A stretch of 64,000 nucleotides of DNA from Escherichia coli (GTDB lineage: Bacteria > Pseudomonadota > Gammaproteobacteria > Enterobacterales > Enterobacteriaceae). The notes beneath the pieces are model-generated. The model did not search any database and had not been told where the DNA came from. It worked only from the letters and a program-made list of their open reading frames with translations. Made by a program: the position numbers and the translations under genes. The stretch is from assembly GCF_003334305.1 (NCBI RefSeq), contig NZ_QOWS01000003.1. One strand, 5' to 3'. Each line of letters begins with the position of its first letter. Position 1 is the stretch's first letter. Below are positions 3,191 through 42,806 of this stretch, piece after piece.

Positions 3191-3982
3191 TCAGAAGCGC
3201 GGCATACTTAAGCCGCCGTCGATGGCGACCGCCTGACCACAGGTGTAAATCAGTTTACCTTCCGCCATCGCGCGGACGGTGGAAGCAATATCAGCCGGAT
3301 AACCCCAACGTCCCCACGGCACCAGACCTTTGGCAATCAGTTCGTCGTAATAAGCCGTTGCCGGAATAGTCATATCAGTTTTGATGAGACCTGGGCGCAC
3401 TTCATAAACGCCAATTTGTTCATTACAAAGGCGAGCAGCAAATAGACGAGCAGCGGCAGAAACGGCGGTTTTGGCAATGGTGTATTCGCCGCGATTCATC
3501 GCCAGCATGATGGCGTTGATGGAACTGACGAAAATAATCGAGCGGTGCGGCAGTTCCGCTTCCGGTTTCGGCTGTGCCAGTAAGCGCTTACTGAATGCCT
3601 GAGCAAGGAAGAACGGCGCGCGGGTGTTAATGGCAATGTTTTGATCGAAGCTGTCTGGTTCGAGGTCGAGGAGGTCACCGCGTTTTTTCACTGAAATCCC
3701 GGCGTTATTGAGCAGGCAGTCCAGACGCCCCCACTGGTTTTGCGCCGCGTCGAGCATCTCTTCATGCAAGGAGAGATCGCCGACATCGGCAGGGAAGCAA
3801 ATGACTTCCACGCCTTCTGCCAAACATTCTTGTTGTGTGATATGCAGTTTTTCTACGCTGTCGGCATCGGGACGATCGTTAATCAGCAGGTTAAACCCGC
3901 CACGAGCAAGCTCCAGCGCACAGCCCTTTCCAATACCACGAGCGGCTCCGGTAATCACGGCAACTGGACGAGTGGATTTCAT
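3191..3982 (-). CDS. short-chain dehydrogenase/reductase (SDR), 263 aa
   Basis: N-terminal TGAARGIGKG Rossmann motif and Y-x3-K catalytic motif (YTIAK); first gene of the minus-strand cluster, divergent from the TetR gene. Confidence 0.75.
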   Translation of the reverse strand: MKSTRPVAVITGAARGIGKGCALELARGGFNLLINDRPDADSVEKLHITQQECLAEGVEVICFPADVGDLSLHEEMLDAAQNQWGRLDCLLNNAGISVKKRGDLLDLEPDSFDQNIAINTRAPFFLAQAFSKRLLAQPKPEAELPHRSIIFVSSINAIMLAMNRGEYTIAKTAVSAAARLFAARLCNEQIGVYEVRPGLIKTDMTIPATAYYDELIAKGLVPWGRWGYPADIASTVRAMAEGKLIYTCGQAVAIDGGLSMPRF

Positions 3983-4191: not shown

Positions 4192-4830
4192 ATGTATCTT
4201 GATACCAGTCACGCACAAAACCTGAAGGAAAAATTGCTGCTATGTGCGGTTAATGAATTTGCCGAATATGGTTATGAAGGGGCCAGAGTAGATAATATTG
4301 TTAAGGCAGCAGGGTGTAGTAAACAGACGGTTTATCACCACTTTGGTAATAAAGAAAATTTGTTTATTGAAGTACTGGAATATACCTGGAACGATATTCG
4401 CGAAAAAGAGAGAGAGCTTGACATTTCAGGGCTTTCTCCGGTTATTGCGATCGAGAAAATAATTGATTTTACTTGGGATTATTACATCAATAATCCGTGG
4501 TTTTTAAAAATTGTCCATAGTGAAAACCAAAGTAAGGGTGTGCATTATAAAAAATCAAAACGCCTCGCTGAAATTAACCATGCACATTTGCAGTCAATGG
4601 CTTCGTTATTAGAAGAAGGGCAGCGACAGAAAACCTTTAAGAAAGATATTGATCCCTTACAAATCAATATTAATATCGCCGCACTGGGTGCATATTATTT
4701 AATAAACCAGTACACACTGGGGATGGTTTATCACATTAGCATGGTTTCACCTGAGGCTTTGGAAGCCAGACGCAGAGTGATCAAAGAGACCATCCTGAGC
4801 TGGCTTTTGGTGAACCCTGCCCGTGGGTAA
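4192..4830 (+). CDS. TetR-family transcriptional regulator (about 212 aa from ATG 4192; ORF track offers upstream ATG 4105)
   Basis: TetR-type N-terminal HTH ([19 protein letters not shown]); GGAAG Shine-Dalgarno upstream of ATG 4192; the 29-aa extension from 4105 looks non-native; divergent from the catabolic cluster. Confidence 0.65.
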
Positions 4831-5460
4831 TCAGCGTGCGCGGATGAAATTACCATCAGGTTGGCGGGTGAACAGTACTTGCTGATTATTTCCCGTATCA
4901 ATGGTTAAGCCGGTAACCACCCCATTCGCATTTTGACGGATTTTAACAATCTGACCATTTTGCAGGTTACTGAGCGGTTTATCCGCGCCCTCGACCTGGG
5001 CCATAGCGTACACATCTGTAGGCGGCAAATTATGGTCGCGGAACAGCTGGGCAAGGGTCTTGCCTGGTTCTACGCGATATGTCCGCCACTGTTGATCGAT
5101 ACCACTTTCCGGTTGGAAAGATTGTGTCTCTGCAACAGGTGGCTCTTCAGGTTGACCTTCCTGAATAGGTTCCGGCGCGACCGGGGCGACCTGATCCGGA
5201 TCGTTTTGCGGCGTCACTAAATGTGCCTGTAGCTGTGCTTCACCTGGGGGGGGTGATTGCATATCTAACTGCGCTTCGCGGGTGACAACAGGCATCTGGC
5301 GTGTTTCATCTCCAGGCAGAAGAATACCGATAATCAGCACTATTGCCGCAATAATGATTCCCCGGCGATGCATCGGCGGCAACGGGTCCATGAGGCGAAA
5401 GTTATCTGGTGCGTGCCAGATTTTCACCAGAGTTGGTTTTAGTTCAAAGCGCCCAGGCAT
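4831..5460 (-). CDS. ytfB: OapA/LysM-domain cell-division protein YtfB
   Basis: Protein MPGRFELKPTLVKIWHAPDNF... recognised as E. coli YtfB; ATG 5458-5460 preceded by GGAGG; ORF-track start 5493 is an upstream alternative. Confidence 0.85.
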   Translation of the reverse strand: MPGRFELKPTLVKIWHAPDNFRLMDPLPPMHRRGIIIAAIVLIIGILLPGDETRQMPVVTREAQLDMQSPPPGEAQLQAHLVTPQNDPDQVAPVAPEPIQEGQPEEPPVAETQSFQPESGIDQQWRTYRVEPGKTLAQLFRDHNLPPTDVYAMAQVEGADKPLSNLQNGQIVKIRQNANGVVTGLTIDTGNNQQVLFTRQPDGNFIRAR

Positions 5461-5678
5461 GGTTTTCCTCCAGCTCCGCGTCGTGTTCCTCAATCATAGC
5501 GCAGTAATAAGCTAACGCTATGATGTCCGTGGTATTACCGCTGTTTTTGTATTCATGCGGATTATCCCTATTGTTTCTGTTTCCCTGGGATTTGTCACTC
5601 ATCCCGCGACAAAGTTTTACCAGAAGAAGCGTGGCTGATATCCTGCCCGCTACTTTATACCCTAAGAAAGGAAATACG

Positions 5679-6299
5679 ATGACCACCCCAACTTTTGACA
5701 CCATCGAAGCGCAAGCAAGCTACGGCATTGGTTTGCAGGTAGGGCAACAACTGAGTGAATCTGGCCTGGAAGGGCTGCTGCCAGAAGCACTGGTTGCAGG
5801 TATTGCCGATGCGCTGGAAGGCAAACATCCGGCTGTTCCGGTTGATGTGGTGCATCGCGCGCTGCGTGAAATCCACGAGCGCGCCGATGCCGTTCGTCGT
5901 CAGCGTTTCCAGGCGATGGCTGCTGAAGGTGTGAAATACCTGGAAGAAAACGCCAAAAAAGAAGGTGTGAATAGCACCGAATCTGGCCTGCAATTCCGCG
6001 TGATCAACCAGGGTGAAGGCGCAATTCCGGCACGTACCGACCGCGTTCGTGTTCATTACACCGGTAAACTGATCGACGGCACCGTGTTTGACAGCTCCGT
6101 TGCTCGTGGTGAACCCGCTGAATTTCCGGTTAATGGCGTGATCCCTGGCTGGATTGAAGCACTGACTCTGATGCCGGTAGGTTCTAAATGGGAACTGACT
6201 ATCCCGCAGGAACTGGCATATGGCGAGCGCGGCGCAGGCGCATCCATCCCTCCGTTCAGTACCCTGGTGTTTGAAGTCGAACTGCTGGAAATTCTCTAA
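5679..6299 (+). CDS. fklB: FKBP-type peptidyl-prolyl cis-trans isomerase
   Basis: Protein [20 protein letters not shown]... recognised as FklB (206 aa); ATG 5679 with AAGGAAA Shine-Dalgarno; ORF-track start 5520 is an upstream extension. Confidence 0.9.
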
Positions 6300-6607
6300 G
6301 CAGCGCATTCTGTTCCCCTCGAACCAGAGGGGAGCAGGCATTCAGCAATAAACCCTTCAGTTTGCCAAACGGCGCTATTTTGTGTTGCAAAGACCCCGTA
6401 AGCGTGTATTTTTGTGAGCTGTTTCGCGTTATCACCGTGATATGACACTCACTTTAAACATAAAATTAACATTAGATCTAAATCTTAGTATTCATCCCGC
6501 GTATTGTTACCTAATATCGATGAGTCCCGATACAGATTCGTCGTATCATAGACTGACTAAAGGCCGTAGAGCCTGAACAACACAGACAGGTACAGGAAGA
6601 AAAAAAC

Positions 6608-13310: not shown

Positions 13311-13499
13311 CAGGGACATCCTTTTATTATCGGGAATACGAAAGAAAAGGGAGAATAAACGTCTTACTTATAGAACAGTGAAGAATGCCACAATTTTACG
13401 CTTTGAAAATGATGACACTATCACAGTTGGCGCATTCATTAACGATAGGGTATAAGTAAAACAATAAGTTAACACCGCTCACAGAGACGAGGTGGAGAA

Positions 13500-14240
13500 A
13501 TGTTAGATCAAGTATGCCAGCTTGCACGGAATGCAGGCGATGCCATTATGCAGGTCTACGACGGGACGAAACCGATGGACGTCGTCAGCAAAGCGGACAA
13601 TTCTCCGGTAACGGCAGCGGATATTGCCGCACACACCGTTATCATGGACGGTTTACGTACGCTGACACCGGATATTCCGGTCCTTTCTGAAGAAGATCCT
13701 CCCGGTTGGGAAGTCCGTCAGCACTGGCAGCGTTACTGGCTGGTAGACCCGCTGGATGGTACTAAAGAGTTTATTAAACGCAATGGCGAATTCACCGTTA
13801 ACATTGCGCTCATTGACCATGGCAAACCGATTTTAGGTGTGGTGTATGCGCCGGTAATGAACGTAATGTACAGCGCGGCAGAAGGCAAGGCCTGGAAAGA
13901 AGAGTGCGGTGTGCGCAAGCAGATTCAGGTCCGCGATGCGCGCCCGCCGCTGGTGGTTATCAGCCGTTCCCATGCAGATGCGGAGCTGAAAGAGTATCTG
14001 CAACAGCTTGGCGAACATCAGACCACGTCCATCGGCTCTTCGCTGAAATTCTGCCTGGTGGCGGAAGGACAGGCGCAGCTGTACCCGCGCTTCGGACCAA
14101 CGAATATTTGGGACACCGCCGCTGGACATGCTGTGGCCGCAGCTGCCGGAGCGCACGTTCACGACTGGCAGGGTAAACCGCTGGATTACACTCCGCGCGA
14201 GTCGTTCCTGAATCCTGGGTTCAGAGTGTCTATTTATTAA
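13500..14240 (+). CDS. cysQ: 3'(2'),5'-bisphosphate nucleotidase
   Basis: 246-aa protein recognised as CysQ (inositol-monophosphatase fold, WLVDPLDGT motif). Confidence 0.95.
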
Positions 14241-14787
14241 TTAATTTATGCAGCAGGTCCATCACTTGCTGCACCTCTTCCTGAGTAAGCGCCCCGTCTT
14301 TGGCCCATTGCACGCGACCGTCTTTATCCAGCACCACTACAGCGGAACTTTTTTCATCCAGCTGCCAGGCACCGCGTGCGACGCCATTGCTATCAACAAT
14401 AAACTGCGACCAGGGATAAAGCTTTTTATTACTCTCCAGACTGCTGCGCACAAACATGCCGGAACCCGGAATTGCGTCGTCGGTGTTAACAATGGTGGTG
14501 GTCTGGTAACGATCGTGCGGTAACTTCGCTGATTTAATCGCTTCAATCAGCGTCGCGTTTTTCTCTTTTGCAGAGGTGCGACCAGCAATATGTTGCAGTA
14601 CTCGCACTTTTCCCACTAACTGCGCGCTGTTCCAGGTTTTGTAGCTAAACTGATCTTTATCAAGCACCAACTCGCCACGATCGGTGATGCCAATCGGCGG
14701 CACTCGCTGACCGGTTTCGAACTGATGTGCGGAAGCCATCATCGGCAACAGCAGGCAGGTGAGTGCCAGAATCTTGCGTAGGGTCAT
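14230..14787 (-). CDS. ytfJ: periplasmic YtfJ-family protein
   Basis: 185-aa protein with signal peptide recognised as YtfJ; its 3' end overlaps the cysQ 3' end by 11 nt. Confidence 0.85.
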
Positions 14788-16723: not shown

Positions 16724-16899
16724 ATCTTATCCGACCTTTCAGGCCAGATCCTCGGAAGGGGAAGTTGATTAATTTGTGTGAAATACACATTGAAAGCCGA
16801 TTCGAAGAAAGTGAACCGGCATTTTCAGTGGCTAGTATAGCGTAAGGTACTGTAAAGTCGCCAGAGGGTTAAAATTCAGACTGCTGATAAATGCAATAC

Positions 16900-17000
16900 T
16901 GCCTGATGCGCTATGCCGATCAGGCCTACGCAGTCCCTGCAATATATTGAATTTGGACGATTTTGTAGGCCTGGTAAGGCATTCACGCCGCATCTGGCAT
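16900..17000. repeat. REP/BIME cluster between msrA and ytfL
   Basis: GCCTGATGCG...CGATCAGGC and GTAGGCCTGGTAAGGC...GCCGCATC motifs. Confidence 0.75.
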
Positions 17001-17838: not shown

Positions 17839-23390
<5,552 letters not shown>

Positions 23391-23392
23391 CA

Positions 23393-23734
23393 ATGCGAAT
23401 ATTTGTCTACGGCAGTTTACGCCACAAACAAGGCAACAGTCACTGGATGACCAATGCCCAGTTACTGGGCGATTTCAGTATCGATAACTACCAGTTGTAT
23501 AGCCTGGGCCACTATCCAGGCGCAGTTCCGGGGAACGGAACAGTACACGGTGAAGTTTATCGTATTGACAACGCCACGCTGGCCGAACTTGATGCCTTGC
23601 GCACCAGGGGCGGTGAATACGCGCGCCAGTTGATTCAGACGCCGTACGGGAGTGCATGGATGTACGTTTATCAACGACCCGTCGATGGATTAAAGCTAAT
23701 TGAAAGCGGCGACTGGTTAGACAGGGATAAGTAA
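23393..23734 (+). CDS. ytfP: gamma-glutamylcyclotransferase-family protein
   Basis: 113-aa protein MRIFVYGSLRHKQGNSHWM... with the family YGSL motif; starts 2 nt after the tamB stop. Confidence 0.85.
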   Translation: MRIFVYGSLRHKQGNSHWMTNAQLLGDFSIDNYQLYSLGHYPGAVPGNGTVHGEVYRIDNATLAELDALRTRGGEYARQLIQTPYGSAWMYVYQRPVDGLKLIESGDWLDRDK

Positions 23735-23745
23735 TAATAAAAGCA

Positions 23746-23770
23746 CGCCACCTTCGGGTGGCGTTGTTTT
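23746..23770 (+). terminator. intrinsic terminator after tamA-tamB-ytfP
   Basis: CGCCACCTTCGGGTGGCG hairpin followed by a T-rich run. Confidence 0.75.
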
Positions 23771-24058
23771 ATGCGATGTATCTCGCGATTTTTTTTTGTA
23801 ACTTTTCCATCTTTTGCTTTTCTCTCCGAGCCGCTTTCCATATCTGCAATCGCATAAAAAACTCTGCTGGCGTTCACAAATGTGCAGGGGTAAAACGGGG
23901 GCACGCTTTGAACGGTGAGTATGAGTGAGGTCGGCTAACTTCCAGCAAGTGGCTATGAACAGCAAAATGGTGGTCGGGTTTGCTTGTTCTTACCGTTCAA
24001 GCCTTGCAACCGCTGAGAATAATGATGGTGGAATAGAGAGTTTATTTATCGCGGGCAT

Positions 24059-24097
24059 AAAAAAACCCTTACTAACCGAAGCCCGGCGTTCAGGGTT
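24059..24097 (-). terminator. intrinsic terminator after ppa
   Basis: On the minus strand a GC-rich hairpin followed by a 7-U run, about 15 bp past the ppa stop. Confidence 0.65.
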
Positions 24098-24113
24098 ATT
24101 GCGCTAGAAGAAC

Positions 24114-24644
24114 TTATTTATTCTTTGCGCGCTCGAAGGAAGCAACGATTTCAGCTTTAGCGGCTTCTGCGTTTTCCCAACCTTCAACTTTCACCCACTT
24201 GCCTTTTTCGAGGTCTTTGTAGTGCTCGAAGAAGTGAGCGATCTGCGCTTTCAGCAGCTCTGGCAGATCGTTAACGTCTTTAATGTGATCGTATTCTTTG
24301 CTCAGCTTTGTGTGCGGAACAGCAATCAGTTTCGCATCTTCACCGGCTTCGTCGGTCATTTTCAGAACGCCAACCGGACGGCAACGGATCACAGAACCCG
24401 GCTGCAGCGGGTACGGAGTCGGGACCAGTACGTCAACCGGGTCACCGTCCAGAGACAGGGTGTGGTTGATGTAACCGTAGTTGCACGGATAGAACATCGC
24501 GGTGGACATGAAGCGGTCAACGAACAGTGCGCCGCTCTCTTTGTCGATTTCGTATTTGATCGGATCTGCGTTAGCCGGGATCTCAATAACAACGTAGATG
24601 TCTTCCGGCAGATCTTTACCCGCAGGGACGTTGAGTAAGCTCAT
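24114..24644 (-). CDS. ppa: inorganic pyrophosphatase
   Basis: 176-aa protein [32 protein letters not shown]... recognised as Ppa. Confidence 0.97.
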
Positions 24645-24953: not shown

Positions 24954-25910
24954 ATGTGGAAACGCTTACTTGTAGTCTCTGCAGTCTCGGCAGCCATGTC
25001 GTCTATGGCGTTGGCCGCTCCATTAACCGTAGGATTTTCGCAGGTCGGATCGGAATCCGGCTGGCGCGCTGCAGAAACCAATGTAGCGAAAAGTGAGGCC
25101 GAAAAACGCGGAATTACGTTGAAAATTGCTGATGGTCAGCAAAAGCAGGAAAACCAGATTAAAGCGGTACGTTCCTTCGTTGCACAAGGGGTGGATGCGA
25201 TCTTTATCGCTCCGGTGGTCGCGACAGGTTGGGAACCGGTATTAAAAGAGGCGAAAGATGCCGAAATCCCGGTCTTCTTGCTCGACCGTTCCATCGATGT
25301 GAAAGACAAATCTCTCTATATGACCACCGTTACTGCCGACAACATCCTCGAAGGTAAGTTGATCGGTGACTGGCTGGTAAAAGAAGTGAATGGCAAACCA
25401 TGCAACGTGGTGGAGCTGCAGGGCACCGTTGGGGCCAGCGTCGCCATTGACCGTAAGAAAGGCTTTGCCGAAGCCATTAAGAATGCGCCAAATATCAAAA
25501 TCATCCGCTCGCAGTCAGGTGACTTCACCCGCAGTAAAGGCAAAGAAGTTATGGAGAGCTTTATCAAAGCGGAAAACAACGGCAAAAACATCTGCATGGT
25601 TTACGCCCATAACGATGACATGGTGATTGGCGCAATTCAGGCAATTAAAGAAGCGGGCCTGAAACCGGGCAAAGATATCCTCACGGGTTCCATTGACGGT
25701 GTACCCGATATCTACAAAGCGATGATTGATGGCGAAGCGAACGCCAGTGTTGAACTGACGCCGAATATGGCAGGTCCCGCCTTCGACGCGCTGGAGAAAT
25801 ACAAAAAAGACGGCACCATGCCTGAAAAGCTGACGCTGACCAAATCCACCCTTTATCTGCCTGATACCGCAAAAGAAGAGTTAGAGAAGAAGAAAAATAT
25901 GGGGTATTGA
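24954..25910 (+). CDS. ytfQ: galactofuranose ABC transporter periplasmic binding protein
   Basis: 318-aa protein with signal peptide recognised as YtfQ; followed by ytfR, ytfT and yjfF. Confidence 0.9.
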   Translation: MWKRLLVVSAVSAAMSSMALAAPLTVGFSQVGSESGWRAAETNVAKSEAEKRGITLKIADGQQKQENQIKAVRSFVAQGVDAIFIAPVVATGWEPVLKEAKDAEIPVFLLDRSIDVKDKSLYMTTVTADNILEGKLIGDWLVKEVNGKPCNVVELQGTVGASVAIDRKKGFAEAIKNAPNIKIIRSQSGDFTRSKGKEVMESFIKAENNGKNICMVYAHNDDMVIGAIQAIKEAGLKPGKDILTGSIDGVPDIYKAMIDGEANASVELTPNMAGPAFDALEKYKKDGTMPEKLTLTKSTLYLPDTAKEELEKKKNMGY

Positions 25911-25917
25911 GGGTTGC

Positions 25918-26075
25918 TATGCCTGATGCCGATTCGTAGGCCGGATAAGGCGCTCGCGCCGCATCCGGCGGTGGTGCGCTGAAGCCTGATGCGACGCTTA
26001 CCGCGTCTTATCATGCCTACGAGTTCGGTGCTCTGTGTAGGCCGGATAAGGCGTTCACGCCGCATCCGGCAGTGG
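25918..26075. repeat. REP/BIME cluster (about four palindromic units) downstream of ytfQ
   Basis: Repeated GCCTGATGCGACGC and GTAGGCCGGATAAGGCG...GCCGCATCCGGC units. Confidence 0.85.
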
Positions 26076-26106
26076 TGCAACACCGGACTTAACACCGTGC
26101 ACAATC

Positions 26107-26148
26107 TGTCCCCTCGCCCCTTCGGGGAGAGGGTTAGGGTGAGGGGGA
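26107..26148. repeat. GC-rich boxC-like intergenic repeat, copy 1
   Basis: TGTCCCCTCGCCCCTTCGGGGAGAGGGTTAGGGTGAGGGGGA; nearly identical copies at about 59231 and 63303. Confidence 0.7.
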
Positions 26149-26219
26149 CAAACGGCGCAGCTCTTAACATCAGGCACGATCTATTCCCAGACTTTTAGAG
26201 CGTGGCTAAGGGGGAAACC

Positions 26220-32344: not shown

Positions 32345-32445
32345 TGCCGGATAAGGCGTTTACGCCGCATCCGGCATTTGAGCATAGTGCCTGATGCGAC
32401 GCTTGATGCGTCTTATCCGGCCTACAGGTGCACCGCATCCGGCAA
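32345..32445. repeat. REP/BIME cluster between mpl and yjgA
   Basis: GCCGGATAAGGCGTTTACGCCGCATCCGGC and GCCTGATGCGACGC units. Confidence 0.85.
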
Positions 32446-42539: not shown

Positions 42540-42806
42540 CGCCATAGATGCTACGAATATTATTGGATTCTCCTTATTATTTGCGGCGCTTTTTTCACTT
42601 ACCGGAGGTTATATGGAACCTGATCCCACGCCTCTCCCTCGACGGAGATTAAAACTTTTCCGGTAAGCCCGTCTTTTCACGGCGTTACCGGATGCGTAAG
42701 GCCGTGACGTTTTAACGTCCCTGCTCAGCTTTATTACCTTCAGGTAAGGCTTCGCCACGCCTGAAGACATTTCTGTACTGTTTCAGACAGTGCGGAGGGA
42801 CTCCTT
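42540..42806 (+). promoter_or_regulatory. mgtA 5' leader (Mg2+/proline-responsive attenuation region containing mgtL)
   Basis: About 265-nt untranslated leader between the PhoP-dependent promoter and the mgtA start, containing the proline-rich leader ORF. Confidence 0.7.
42613..42666 (+). CDS. mgtL: mgtA leader peptide MgtL (17 aa, proline-rich)
   Basis: ATG 42613 to TAA 42664-42666 encodes [17 protein letters not shown] inside the mgtA 5' leader. Confidence 0.8.

What the first reader, a model, noticed from the sequence alone, without database searches (positions are those of the whole stretch)
23735..24113. No chpS-chpB toxin-antitoxin module between ytfP and ppa
Only about 380 bp of non-coding sequence (two terminators, no ORF of plausible size) separates ytfP from ppa. 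In K-12 this interval holds the chpS/chpB (MazEF-like) toxin-antitoxin pair. Its absence marks this as a non-K-12 lineage and a variable site in the core chromosome.
Basis: partly seen in the sequence, partly recalled or inferred. Interest (0 to 1): 0.4.

Follow-up and report, generated by a model that had tools for sequence, protein, structure and literature searches.

The report
Decayed chpSB toxin-antitoxin scar
The gap between ytfP and ppa in this E. coli strain is not an empty site but the worn-down remains of the chpS-chpB toxin-antitoxin genes, an old dead allele carried by about 43% of complete E. coli genomes, and the underlying gene-presence polymorphism is already published.

Summary
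ytfP (23393-23734) and ppa (24114-24644, minus strand) are separated by 379 nt that contain two terminators, no chpS, no intact chpB and no conserved ORF. K-12 has chpS-chpB at this position.

The spacer is not an ancestral empty site. Window 23907-24031 is a relic of chpB codons 7-48: 74% DNA identity, z = 24 against shuffles, three in-frame stops and two 1-nt deletions. The last chpB codons plus the stop survive at 24029-24036.

Differences from intact chpB are spread evenly over codon positions (11/11/11), which indicates neutral decay after inactivation.

Identical breakpoints and shared stop codons occur in E. coli B2 (CFT073), a divergent Escherichia lineage and E. albertii, so the scar arose once and is old.

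Among 5426 complete E. coli genomes, 3100 carry chpSB and 2322 carry the scar.

Truly empty sites, seen in Klebsiella, Kluyvera, Enterobacter and Salmonella, are only about 100-170 nt.

The three-state locus (chpBS, esiB, neither) was published in 2013. Only the relic inside the "neither" class appears unreported. Interest is low.

One weak oddity: the relic keeps more of an inherited chpB hairpin than random decay predicts (P about 0.003, post hoc).

The parts
23393..23734 (+). ytfP (gamma-glutamylcyclotransferase family protein), the left flanking core gene
   Evidence: ORF of 113 aa; annotated as ytfP in all matching genomes.
23745..23797 (+). ytfP intrinsic terminator: hairpin 23745-23764 plus T-run, followed by a small second hairpin 23772-23787 plus T9
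   Evidence: Terminator scan; fold -24.5 kcal/mol, z -4.4, 0 of 200 shuffles as stable. The hairpin is conserved in Klebsiella, Kluyvera, Enterobacter and Salmonella empty sites. It is the repeat duplicated on either side of esiB in CFT073.
23798..23897 (+). Retained upstream leader of the chpSB cassette, homologous to the K-12 sequence between the ytfP terminator and the chpS promoter region
   Evidence: Aligns to K-12 upstream of chpS at 87%. The ytfP 3' end, terminator and first part of this stretch (window about 23734-23839) align at 71% to the equivalent region of the Enterobacter asburiae chpSB allele (E 6e-7), while empty-site alleles lack the sequence between the terminators. For the 3' part the cassette origin is inferred from the Enterobacter and Kluyvera cassette boundaries. 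Haplotypes of this stretch are shared between chpSB and scar alleles.
23897..23906 (.). Left deletion junction plus 9 nt (GGGGCACGC) of unassignable sequence. Relative to K-12, about 313 nt are missing: the palindrome GTTATAC-TTT-GTATAAC, the Shine-Dalgarno sequence, all of chpS and chpB codons 1-6.
   Evidence: Alignments and sequence print-out. The breakpoint is identical in all four scar alleles.
23907..24031 (+). Relic of chpB codons 7-48, with three in-frame stops and two 1-nt deletions
   Evidence: blastn 72%, E 2e-14. Smith-Waterman score 71 against 18.3 +/- 2.2 in 1000 dinucleotide shuffles, z 23.7. tblastn to ChpB aa 15-42 at 50% identity. Frame-repaired translation 22/42 identical. 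The only NCBIfam hit is the ChpB equivalog NF007320, E 1.5e-4. Differences by codon position are 11/11/11.
24026..24036 (+). Right deletion junction in the repeat TGGTGG, followed by the last chpB codon and stop (GAA TAG; K-12 has GAA TAA). About 196 nt (chpB codons ~49-114) are missing.
   Evidence: K-12 has TGGTGG both at chpB nt ~141-146 and in its last codons. The junction is identical in all scar alleles.
24057..24097 (-). ppa intrinsic terminator (hairpin plus U7), shared with chpSB-bearing alleles
   Evidence: Fold (structure visible, not significant against shuffles). 95% identical to K-12 downstream of chpB. Homologous to the Salmonella empty site.
24114..24644 (-). ppa (inorganic diphosphatase), the right flanking core gene
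   Evidence: ORF of 176 aa; annotation; promoter-like site at 24713-24686.

Best explanation
The 379-nt ytfP-ppa spacer is a dead, decayed allele of the chpS-chpB (ChpBI/ChpBK, MazEF-like) type II toxin-antitoxin cassette. Shown: relative to the intact cassette, two deletions are present. The left one removed the operator-like palindrome, the ribosome-binding site, all of chpS and the first six codons of chpB. The right one, bounded by a TGGTGG repeat, removed chpB codons ~49-114. What remains between the two terminators is about 100 nt of cassette leader, chpB codons 7-48 and the last chpB codon with the stop. The relic carries three stops and two frameshifts, and its substitutions are even across codon positions. 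Inferred: the left deletion alone would silence antitoxin and toxin together, since chpB would lose its promoter and translation start. That would be a safe one-step way to lose an addictive module. The relic has since drifted neutrally and does nothing. The only working elements in the spacer are the ytfP and ppa terminators. Shown: the scar arose once, because breakpoints and stops are the same in E. coli non-B2, B2, a divergent Escherichia lineage and E. albertii. It coexists with intact chpSB in E. coli at 43% against 57%. Inferred: it is old, on the timescale of the genus, and both alleles are exchanged between lineages and species by homologous recombination through the conserved ytfP and ppa flanks.
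For: Homology of 23907-24031 to chpB: (z 23.7). Same position, orientation and retained stop codon context. No ChpS anywhere in the window. Neutral decay: remnant against chpB differs 11/11/11 by codon position, whereas intact-to-intact comparisons give 5/4/21, 5/4/25 and 10/4/27. GC falls from 0.54 to 0.47. Single origin: identical junctions and shared stops at codons 10, 12 and 17 in four alleles from at least three species-level lineages. Age: JC distance of relic to chpB is 0.33, against 0.04-0.19 among scars. Census: chpSB in 3100 and scar in 2322 of 5426 genomes; esiB in 188, and in CFT073 esiB sits in a scar-type spacer. Recombination: LD91-1 has 100%-identical flanking genes but intact chpSB. 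Left-spacer haplotypes are shared across allele classes and species. The relic between the window and L008 differs by only 0.044 although tamB and ytfQ 4-fold sites differ by 0.27. Cassette boundaries and true empty sites of about 100-170 nt in other genera. chpSB sits at the same site in Enterobacter, Lelliottia, Kluyvera and Pseudocitrobacter.
Against: Pfam does not recognise the repaired 42-aa fragment, and the NCBIfam score (21.8 bits) is far below the curated cut-off of 129, so protein-level evidence alone would be weak. The case rests on the DNA alignment and synteny. The order of the two deletions and the microhomology mechanism are inferred: only the right junction shows a clear repeat, and 9 nt at the left junction cannot be assigned. 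Dating is rough, resting on 125 nt and an uncertain local neutral rate. The relic keeps more of an inherited hairpin than random decay predicts (28 of 34 pairs against 21.5 +/- 2.2, P about 0.003), which sits uneasily with pure neutrality.
Confidence: 0.88

Rival explanations
1. This is an ancestral empty site: the strain never had chpSB, and K-12-type strains gained the cassette by insertion.
For: Many Enterobacteriaceae have no chpSB between ytfP and ppa, so at family level the empty state may be the older one.
Against: The window's spacer contains chpB-derived sequence and cassette leader. True empty sites are about 100-170 nt and hold only the two terminators plus unrelated filler, whereas this spacer is 379 nt.
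Confidence: 0.02
2. The fragment comes from a divergent but until recently functional chpB-like or other MazF/PemK allele that was deleted recently, so the 26% divergence would reflect allele diversity and not age.
For: Divergent chpSB alleles (63-78% amino-acid identity) exist at this site in other genera. Alleles do move by recombination.
Against: Differences are spread 11/11/11 over codon positions, not concentrated at third positions as in functional alleles. The relic is closest to Escherichia chpB (73-76%) and aligns poorly to the other genera's alleles. The stops are shared by scars in separate species. The only NCBIfam hit is ChpB, not MazF.
Confidence: 0.05
3. The relic has been co-opted: its long hairpin (23907-24003) is kept by selection as a structured RNA or DNA element, for example an insulator or stabiliser between the convergent ytfP and ppa genes. 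That would explain why about 130 nt of dead gene persists at constant length across species.
For: The hairpin folds better than shuffles (z -2.3). 28-29 of 34 ancestral stem pairs survive 25 substitutions against 21.5 +/- 2.2 expected (P about 0.003). Two both-sided changes keep pairing. Spacer length is 378-379 nt in three lineages. Between-species divergence of the relic (0.04-0.12) is well below tamB and ytfQ 4-fold sites (0.23-0.46).
Against: The hairpin is inherited from the chpB coding sequence and is eroding: Watson-Crick pairs fall from 28 to 21, and in E. albertii the fold is no better than chance (z 0.08; MFE P 0.49). Substitutions do not significantly avoid paired columns (Fisher P 0.22). 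The relic's divergence matches 4-fold sites of the adjacent ytfP and ppa genes (0.08-0.13), so recombination explains it equally well. There is no Rfam family, no promoter-like site and no U-tract after the stem. The test was post hoc on one lineage.
Confidence: 0.06

Closest known systems
chpS-chpB (ChpBI/ChpBK) type II toxin-antitoxin module of E. coli K-12 (Masuda et al. 1993, cited in PMC7232551 and PMC7167474)
   Same: Same chromosomal site between ytfP and ppa, same orientation, shared upstream leader and downstream ppa terminator. 125 nt are homologous to chpB codons 7-48, and the stop-codon context is retained.
   Different: No chpS, no promoter or operator region, no chpB start, only 42 of 116 toxin codons, three stops and two frameshifts. 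It cannot encode either protein.
The 'both esiB and chpBS absent' class of the esiB locus (Pastorello et al., mBio 2013, PMC3735183)
   Same: This is that allele class. The paper reports chpBS in 53%, esiB in 15% and neither in 32% of 47 genomes, and short direct repeats flanking esiB. Here the figures are 57% chpSB, 3.5% esiB and about 39% plain scar in 5426 genomes. The repeat is the ytfP terminator hairpin.
   Different: The passages I read describe the genes simply as absent. Here the 'absent' class, and the esiB class too, are shown to carry a chpB relic with a single origin that is also present in E. albertii.
Decay of the chromosomal ccdO157 toxin-antitoxin system in E. coli (Mine et al. 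2009, Genetics; cited as ref. 34 in PMC7167474)
   Same: The same kind of phenomenon: a chromosomal type II TA at a fixed intergenic site that is intact in some strains and degraded by deletion or nonsense mutation in others. It has been interpreted as neutral loss of a selfish or anti-addiction module.
   Different: A different toxin family (CcdB against MazF/PemK-like ChpB) and a different locus. I did not read the primary paper, so the comparison rests on the review's description.

Membership tests
Functional chpSB type II toxin-antitoxin module | Antitoxin gene chpS (83 aa) immediately upstream of the toxin gene | tested here: not met
   tblastn of ChpS finds nothing in the spacer or elsewhere in the 64-kb window (best E 2.5). 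The alignment shows the whole gene is deleted.
Functional chpSB type II toxin-antitoxin module | Intact toxin ORF of about 116 aa (ChpB, NCBIfam NF007320 at or above 129 bits) | tested here: not met
   Only codons 7-48 and the last codon survive, with three in-frame stops and two 1-nt deletions. NF007320 scores 21.8 bits against a cut-off of 129.
Functional chpSB type II toxin-antitoxin module | Upstream promoter/operator region and ribosome-binding site for autoregulated expression | tested here: not met
   The K-12 palindrome GTTATAC-TTT-GTATAAC and the Shine-Dalgarno sequence lie inside the left deletion. No promoter-like site was found on the + strand of the spacer. That the palindrome is the operator is my inference.
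Functional chpSB type II toxin-antitoxin module | Location between ytfP and ppa, same orientation as ytfP | tested here: met
   PMC5120126.
Sequence derived from chpB (homology, not function) | Significant, collinear nucleotide similarity to chpB at the syntenic position | tested here: met
   74% identity over 125 nt; Smith-Waterman z 23.7 against 1000 dinucleotide shuffles; the reverse-complement control scores at background level; blastn E 2e-14.
Sequence derived from chpB (homology, not function) | Recognition by the Pfam PemK/MazF toxin profile | tested here: not met
   No Pfam match even at E <= 10 for the frame-repaired 42-aa fragment. The fragment is short and decayed, so this does not contradict the DNA-level result.
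Neutral pseudogene / deletion scar | Disabling lesions, and substitutions unbiased with respect to codon position | tested here: met
   Three stops and two frameshifts. Differences are 11/11/11 by codon position, against a third-position excess among intact alleles.
Ancestral empty ytfP-ppa site | Only the two terminators and no cassette-derived sequence between the genes (about 100-170 nt) | tested here: not met
   Empty sites in Enterobacter, Kluyvera, Klebsiella and Salmonella are about 100-170 nt and match only the terminator regions. The window has 379 nt with cassette leader and a chpB relic.
Known structured RNA family | Match to a curated covariance model, or covariation-supported structure | tested here: inconclusive
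   No Rfam match in the spacer at E <= 1 apart from a chance-level S15 hit inside ppa, and none at gathering threshold. The hairpin shows pair retention above random expectation, but it is inherited from chpB and is eroding.

The most novel reading that the evidence does not exclude
The chpB relic is not inert. Its inherited 97-nt hairpin would be maintained by selection as a structural element between the convergent ytfP and ppa genes, or the intact and scar alleles would be kept as a long-lived balanced polymorphism across Escherichia species. Either would explain why a dead 130-nt fragment has persisted with fixed boundaries since before the E. coli / E. albertii scars diverged.
Probability: 0.08. 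Interest if true: 0.45.

Novelty: already known. Interest (0 to 1): 0.18.

Why it matters
The practical value is mainly in annotation and interpretation. Strains scored as chpSB-negative, which is about 43% of complete E. coli genomes and includes B2 strains such as CFT073 and Nissle 1917, are not naive for this module. They carry an unannotated, single-origin relic of it. This gives a clean and datable example of how an addictive toxin-antitoxin cassette is lost: one deletion takes out the promoter, the antitoxin and the toxin start together. It also shows that dead and live alleles coexist and are shuffled by recombination across Escherichia species. Finally, it confirms the ytfP-ppa gap as a recurrent cargo site (chpSB, esiB, a prophage, a sugar operon, IS1). 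None of this changes what is known about TA biology.

Tried and rejected
1. Strain HH45 looked like an intermediate allele: PGAP annotates a truncated PemK/MazF pseudogene there, and it matches the relic at 81.6%. The alignment shows window-type flanks, 100 nt identical to K-12 chpB and an implausible C/G-rich filler. I treated it as a mosaic or assembly artefact and did not use it.

2. A MAFFT multiple alignment of whole spacers placed the relic against chpS instead of chpB. The apparent 80-85% "divergent haplotype" in sliding windows is that misalignment and not real flank divergence. I relied on pairwise local alignments instead.

3. The idea that a divergent haplotype block surrounds the indel was rejected, because left-spacer haplotypes are shared between allele classes.

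4. Apparent constraint on the relic, based on low between-species divergence, was not upheld. The neighbouring ytfP and ppa 4-fold sites are equally low, although the ytfP sample is small (46 sites) and ppa may be affected by codon bias.

5. Quasi-palindrome template-switch "perfecting" of the hairpin was rejected, because Watson-Crick pairs fall from 28 to 21.

6. Pfam on the repaired fragment gave no hit. Rfam gave no hit in the spacer. The promoter scan found nothing in the spacer.

7. In the literature, no paper in the held library describes the relic. Either paper may have described it.

8. A first shuffle control that launched blastn repeatedly timed out and was redone with an in-process aligner.

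Full report
**Observation**

The window is E. coli chromosome. tamB (19611-23390), ytfP (23393-23734), ppa (24114-24644, minus strand) and ytfQ (24954-25910) are all in place, and the ytfP-ppa spacer is 379 nt.

The spacer holds a strong ytfP terminator: hairpin 23745-23764 plus a T-run, z -4.4, followed by a second small hairpin plus T9. It also holds the ppa terminator on the minus strand at about 24057-24097.

tblastn with K-12 ChpS and ChpB finds no antitoxin anywhere in the 64 kb and no full-length toxin.

K-12 has chpS and chpB exactly here, 211 nt after ytfP and 79 nt before ppa (PMC5120126).

**What is actually in the spacer**

blastn of the spacer against the K-12 interval gave the two expected flank matches: window 23675-23897 at 87% and 24026-24173 at 95%. 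It also gave a third match, window 23907-24031 against the inside of chpB at 72%, E 2e-14.

A local alignment scores 71 against 18.3 +/- 2.2 (maximum 29) for 1000 dinucleotide-preserving shuffles, which is z = 23.7. The reverse-complement control scores at background level.

Read in the chpB frame, the segment covers codons 7-48 with 22 of 42 residues identical, three in-frame stops and two 1-nt deletions. tblastn sees ChpB residues 15-42 at 50% identity.

The only NCBIfam model that the repaired fragment hits is the ChpB equivalog NF007320 (E 1.5e-4, profile positions 7-47), not MazF. Pfam finds nothing, which is unsurprising for 42 decayed residues.

At the 3' end the window reads ATGGTGGAATAG where K-12 chpB ends GTGGTGGAATAA. 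The last chpB codon and the stop position therefore survive.

The left junction (23897/23898) removes the K-12 palindrome GTTATAC-TTT-GTATAAC, the ribosome-binding site, all of chpS and chpB codons 1-6. Nine nucleotides there cannot be assigned.

The right junction lies in a TGGTGG repeat that K-12 has both at chpB nt ~141-146 and in its last codons. This fits a microhomology-mediated deletion of about 196 nt, which is an inference.

**Cassette boundaries and true empty sites**

I fetched the ytfP locus from 80 species.

- Intact chpSB lies between ytfP and ppa in four other Escherichia lineages, including E. whittamii.
- More diverged copies (63-78% amino-acid identity) lie at the same site in Enterobacter asburiae, a Lelliottia, Kluyvera genomosp. 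1, two Pseudocitrobacter and an unnamed Enterobacteriaceae isolate.
- Many other species have only about 100-170 nt between the genes.

Comparing Enterobacter and Kluyvera genomes with and without the module shows that the cassette is everything between the two terminators, about 760-790 nt including roughly 150 nt upstream of chpS.

The window's ytfP terminator region and the first part of its left spacer align to the equivalent Enterobacter region at 71%, E 6e-7. Essentially everything between the terminators in the window (about 23798-24036) is therefore cassette debris.

This rules out an ancestral empty site.

**Neutral decay, single origin, age**

The relic differs from intact chpB at 33 of 125 aligned positions, spread 11/11/11 over codon positions. 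Intact chpB alleles of other genera differ from K-12 with the usual third-position excess: 5/4/21, 5/4/25 and 10/4/27. The divergence therefore accumulated after inactivation, not in a divergent functional allele.

The relic is closest to Escherichia chpB (73-76%) and barely aligns to the other genera's alleles.

The same scar is present in four places:
- CFT073 (E. coli B2);
- a record titled E. coli (L008) that is 0.29 diverged at 4-fold sites and is therefore likely a cryptic Escherichia species;
- the E. albertii type strain;
- the window itself.

All have identical left and right junctions and the same stops at codons 10, 12 and 17. That indicates one origin.

The Jukes-Cantor distance from relic to chpB is 0.33, against 0.04-0.19 among scars. 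For the window, 4-fold-site distances are 0.04 to K-12, 0.10 to CFT073, 0.41 to E. albertii and 0.63-0.72 to Salmonella, Citrobacter and Enterobacter.

On this rough yardstick (125 nt only) the inactivation is old, on the timescale of the genus.

**Population picture and recombination**

Among 5426 complete E. coli genomes:
- chpSB is present in 3100;
- the relic is present in 2322;
- esiB, which in CFT073 is inserted after the ytfP terminator in a scar-type spacer and is flanked by a duplicated terminator hairpin, is present in 188;
- a beta-glucoside operon with a P2-like prophage is present in about 3.

The two main classes sum to 5422, so scar genomes essentially never carry chpSB elsewhere.

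Allele state is not clonal. LD91-1 is 99.1% identical to the window across 22 kb and 100% identical in ytfP and ppa, yet it carries intact chpSB. Left-spacer haplotypes are shared between scar and chpSB alleles and between species.

The relic in the window and in L008 differs by 0.044, although tamB and ytfQ 4-fold sites differ by 0.27. I infer that both alleles are moved by homologous recombination through the conserved flanks.

4-fold divergence in ytfP and ppa themselves is low between species (0.08-0.13). This fits such exchange, but codon bias in ppa and the small ytfP sample (46 sites) could also produce it.

**Is the relic doing anything?**

There is no Rfam match, no promoter-like site in the spacer, no conserved ORF and no RefSeq annotation in the listed genomes.

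One oddity remains. Window 23907-24003 forms a long imperfect hairpin (z -2.3). The hairpin already exists in intact K-12 chpB (z -2.5).

The scars keep 28-29 of its 34 pairs despite 25 substitutions. Random substitution of chpB gives 21.5 +/- 2.2 pairs (P about 0.003), and two pairs changed on both sides while staying paired.

Against a functional reading:
- Watson-Crick pairs fall from 28 to 21;
- substitutions do not significantly avoid paired columns (P 0.22);
- the E. albertii version folds no better than chance;
- functional chpB genes of other genera do not conserve the stem (21-24 of 34 pairs);
- the test was post hoc on a single lineage.

I record it as a weak, unexplained hint and not as evidence of function.

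**Comparison with what is known, and verdict**

The three-state nature of this locus was published in 2013: chpBS in 53%, esiB in 15% and neither in 32% of 47 genomes, with short direct repeats around esiB (PMC3735183).

Decay of chromosomal TA modules in E. coli is an established theme (review PMC7167474 citing Fiedoruk 2015 and Mine 2009).

What I could not find in the accessible literature is the statement that the "neither" class contains a single-origin chpB relic shared with E. albertii. The two most relevant papers could not be read.

The finding is therefore real but ordinary. It is a known presence/absence polymorphism, refined here to a deletion scar. Interest is low.

Noticed in passing
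L002 (CFT073) 4334-6368; corresponds to window 23747-23772: esiB is inserted just after the ytfP terminator in a scar-type spacer. It is flanked by a direct duplication of the terminator hairpin region (about 26 nt), which matches the 'short direct repeats with partial inverted symmetry' described in the EsiB paper. esiB is present in 188 of 5426 complete genomes.
   Followed up: partly
L003 / L087 (strain N50, NZ_CM165889.1): The same ytfP-ppa spacer holds a beta-glucoside PTS / glycoside hydrolase / licT operon next to a P2-like prophage (integrase, Cox, portal, terminase, tail genes). The site therefore also serves as an integration spot. The operon is at >=99% identity in only 3 genomes.
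   Followed up: partly
L004 (strain HH45, NZ_CP116411.1) 2207-2718: An odd 512-nt spacer with window-type flanks, 100 nt identical to K-12 chpB (annotated as a truncated PemK/MazF pseudogene) and a stretch of implausible C/G-rich sequence. It looks like an assembly artefact or a gene-conversion mosaic.
   Followed up: partly
NZ_CP069571.1 (FDAARGOS_1250), hit H1: An IS1A element is inserted within the ytfP-ppa region of an otherwise 100%-identical scar allele.
   Followed up: no
window 23907-24003: A long imperfect hairpin inherited from the chpB coding sequence. The scars retain 28-29 of 34 stem pairs where random decay predicts about 21.5 (P about 0.003, post hoc).
   Followed up: yes
window 23393-24644 versus L005-L010: 4-fold-site divergence between Escherichia species is only 0.08-0.13 in ytfP and ppa, against 0.23-0.46 in the adjacent tamB and ytfQ. 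This local valley could reflect inter-species recombination around the variable spacer, or codon bias in ppa.
   Followed up: partly
L027 (Citrobacter sedlakii) 3933-3971; L033 (Enterobacter cloacae DSM 26481) 5600-5668: There are short, different TA fragments at the same locus in other genera: ChpB aa 64-76 (11/13 identical) in a 341-nt gap, and a ChpS-like stretch (aa 9-31) next to ppa. These suggest independent decay events, or another AbrB-type gene in L033.
   Followed up: partly
L007 (CP089930.1) and L008 (NZ_JAATUR010000006.1): These records are titled Escherichia coli but are 0.27-0.29 diverged from the window at 4-fold sites, against 0.04-0.10 for genuine E. coli strains. They are probably cryptic-clade Escherichia species carrying an E. 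coli label.
   Followed up: no
window 14240-14245: About 1.2 kb that K-12 has between cysQ and ytfJ (the ytfI gene) is absent from the window, as it is in strain LD91-1. This is another K-12-versus-this-strain presence/absence difference.
   Followed up: no
window 25911-26210: The ytfQ-ytfR intergenic region carries about 190 nt more than K-12. It is an array of REP/BIME-type palindromes with an Rfam naRNA4 match at 25939-26017 and a GC-rich hairpin near 26110-26150. This is ordinary repetitive extragenic sequence.
   Followed up: partly
E. coli genome collection: Three of the 3101 chpSB matches lie on plasmids rather than chromosomes. I did not examine them.
   Followed up: no
window 13311-13433, 16785-16964, 32345-32422, 42598-42713, 60047-60241: Rfam gathering-level hits elsewhere in the window: ES239, STnc450, ES036, naRNA4, the Mg2+ riboswitch and Ysr276. 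All are expected enterobacterial elements and none is near the finding.
   Followed up: no
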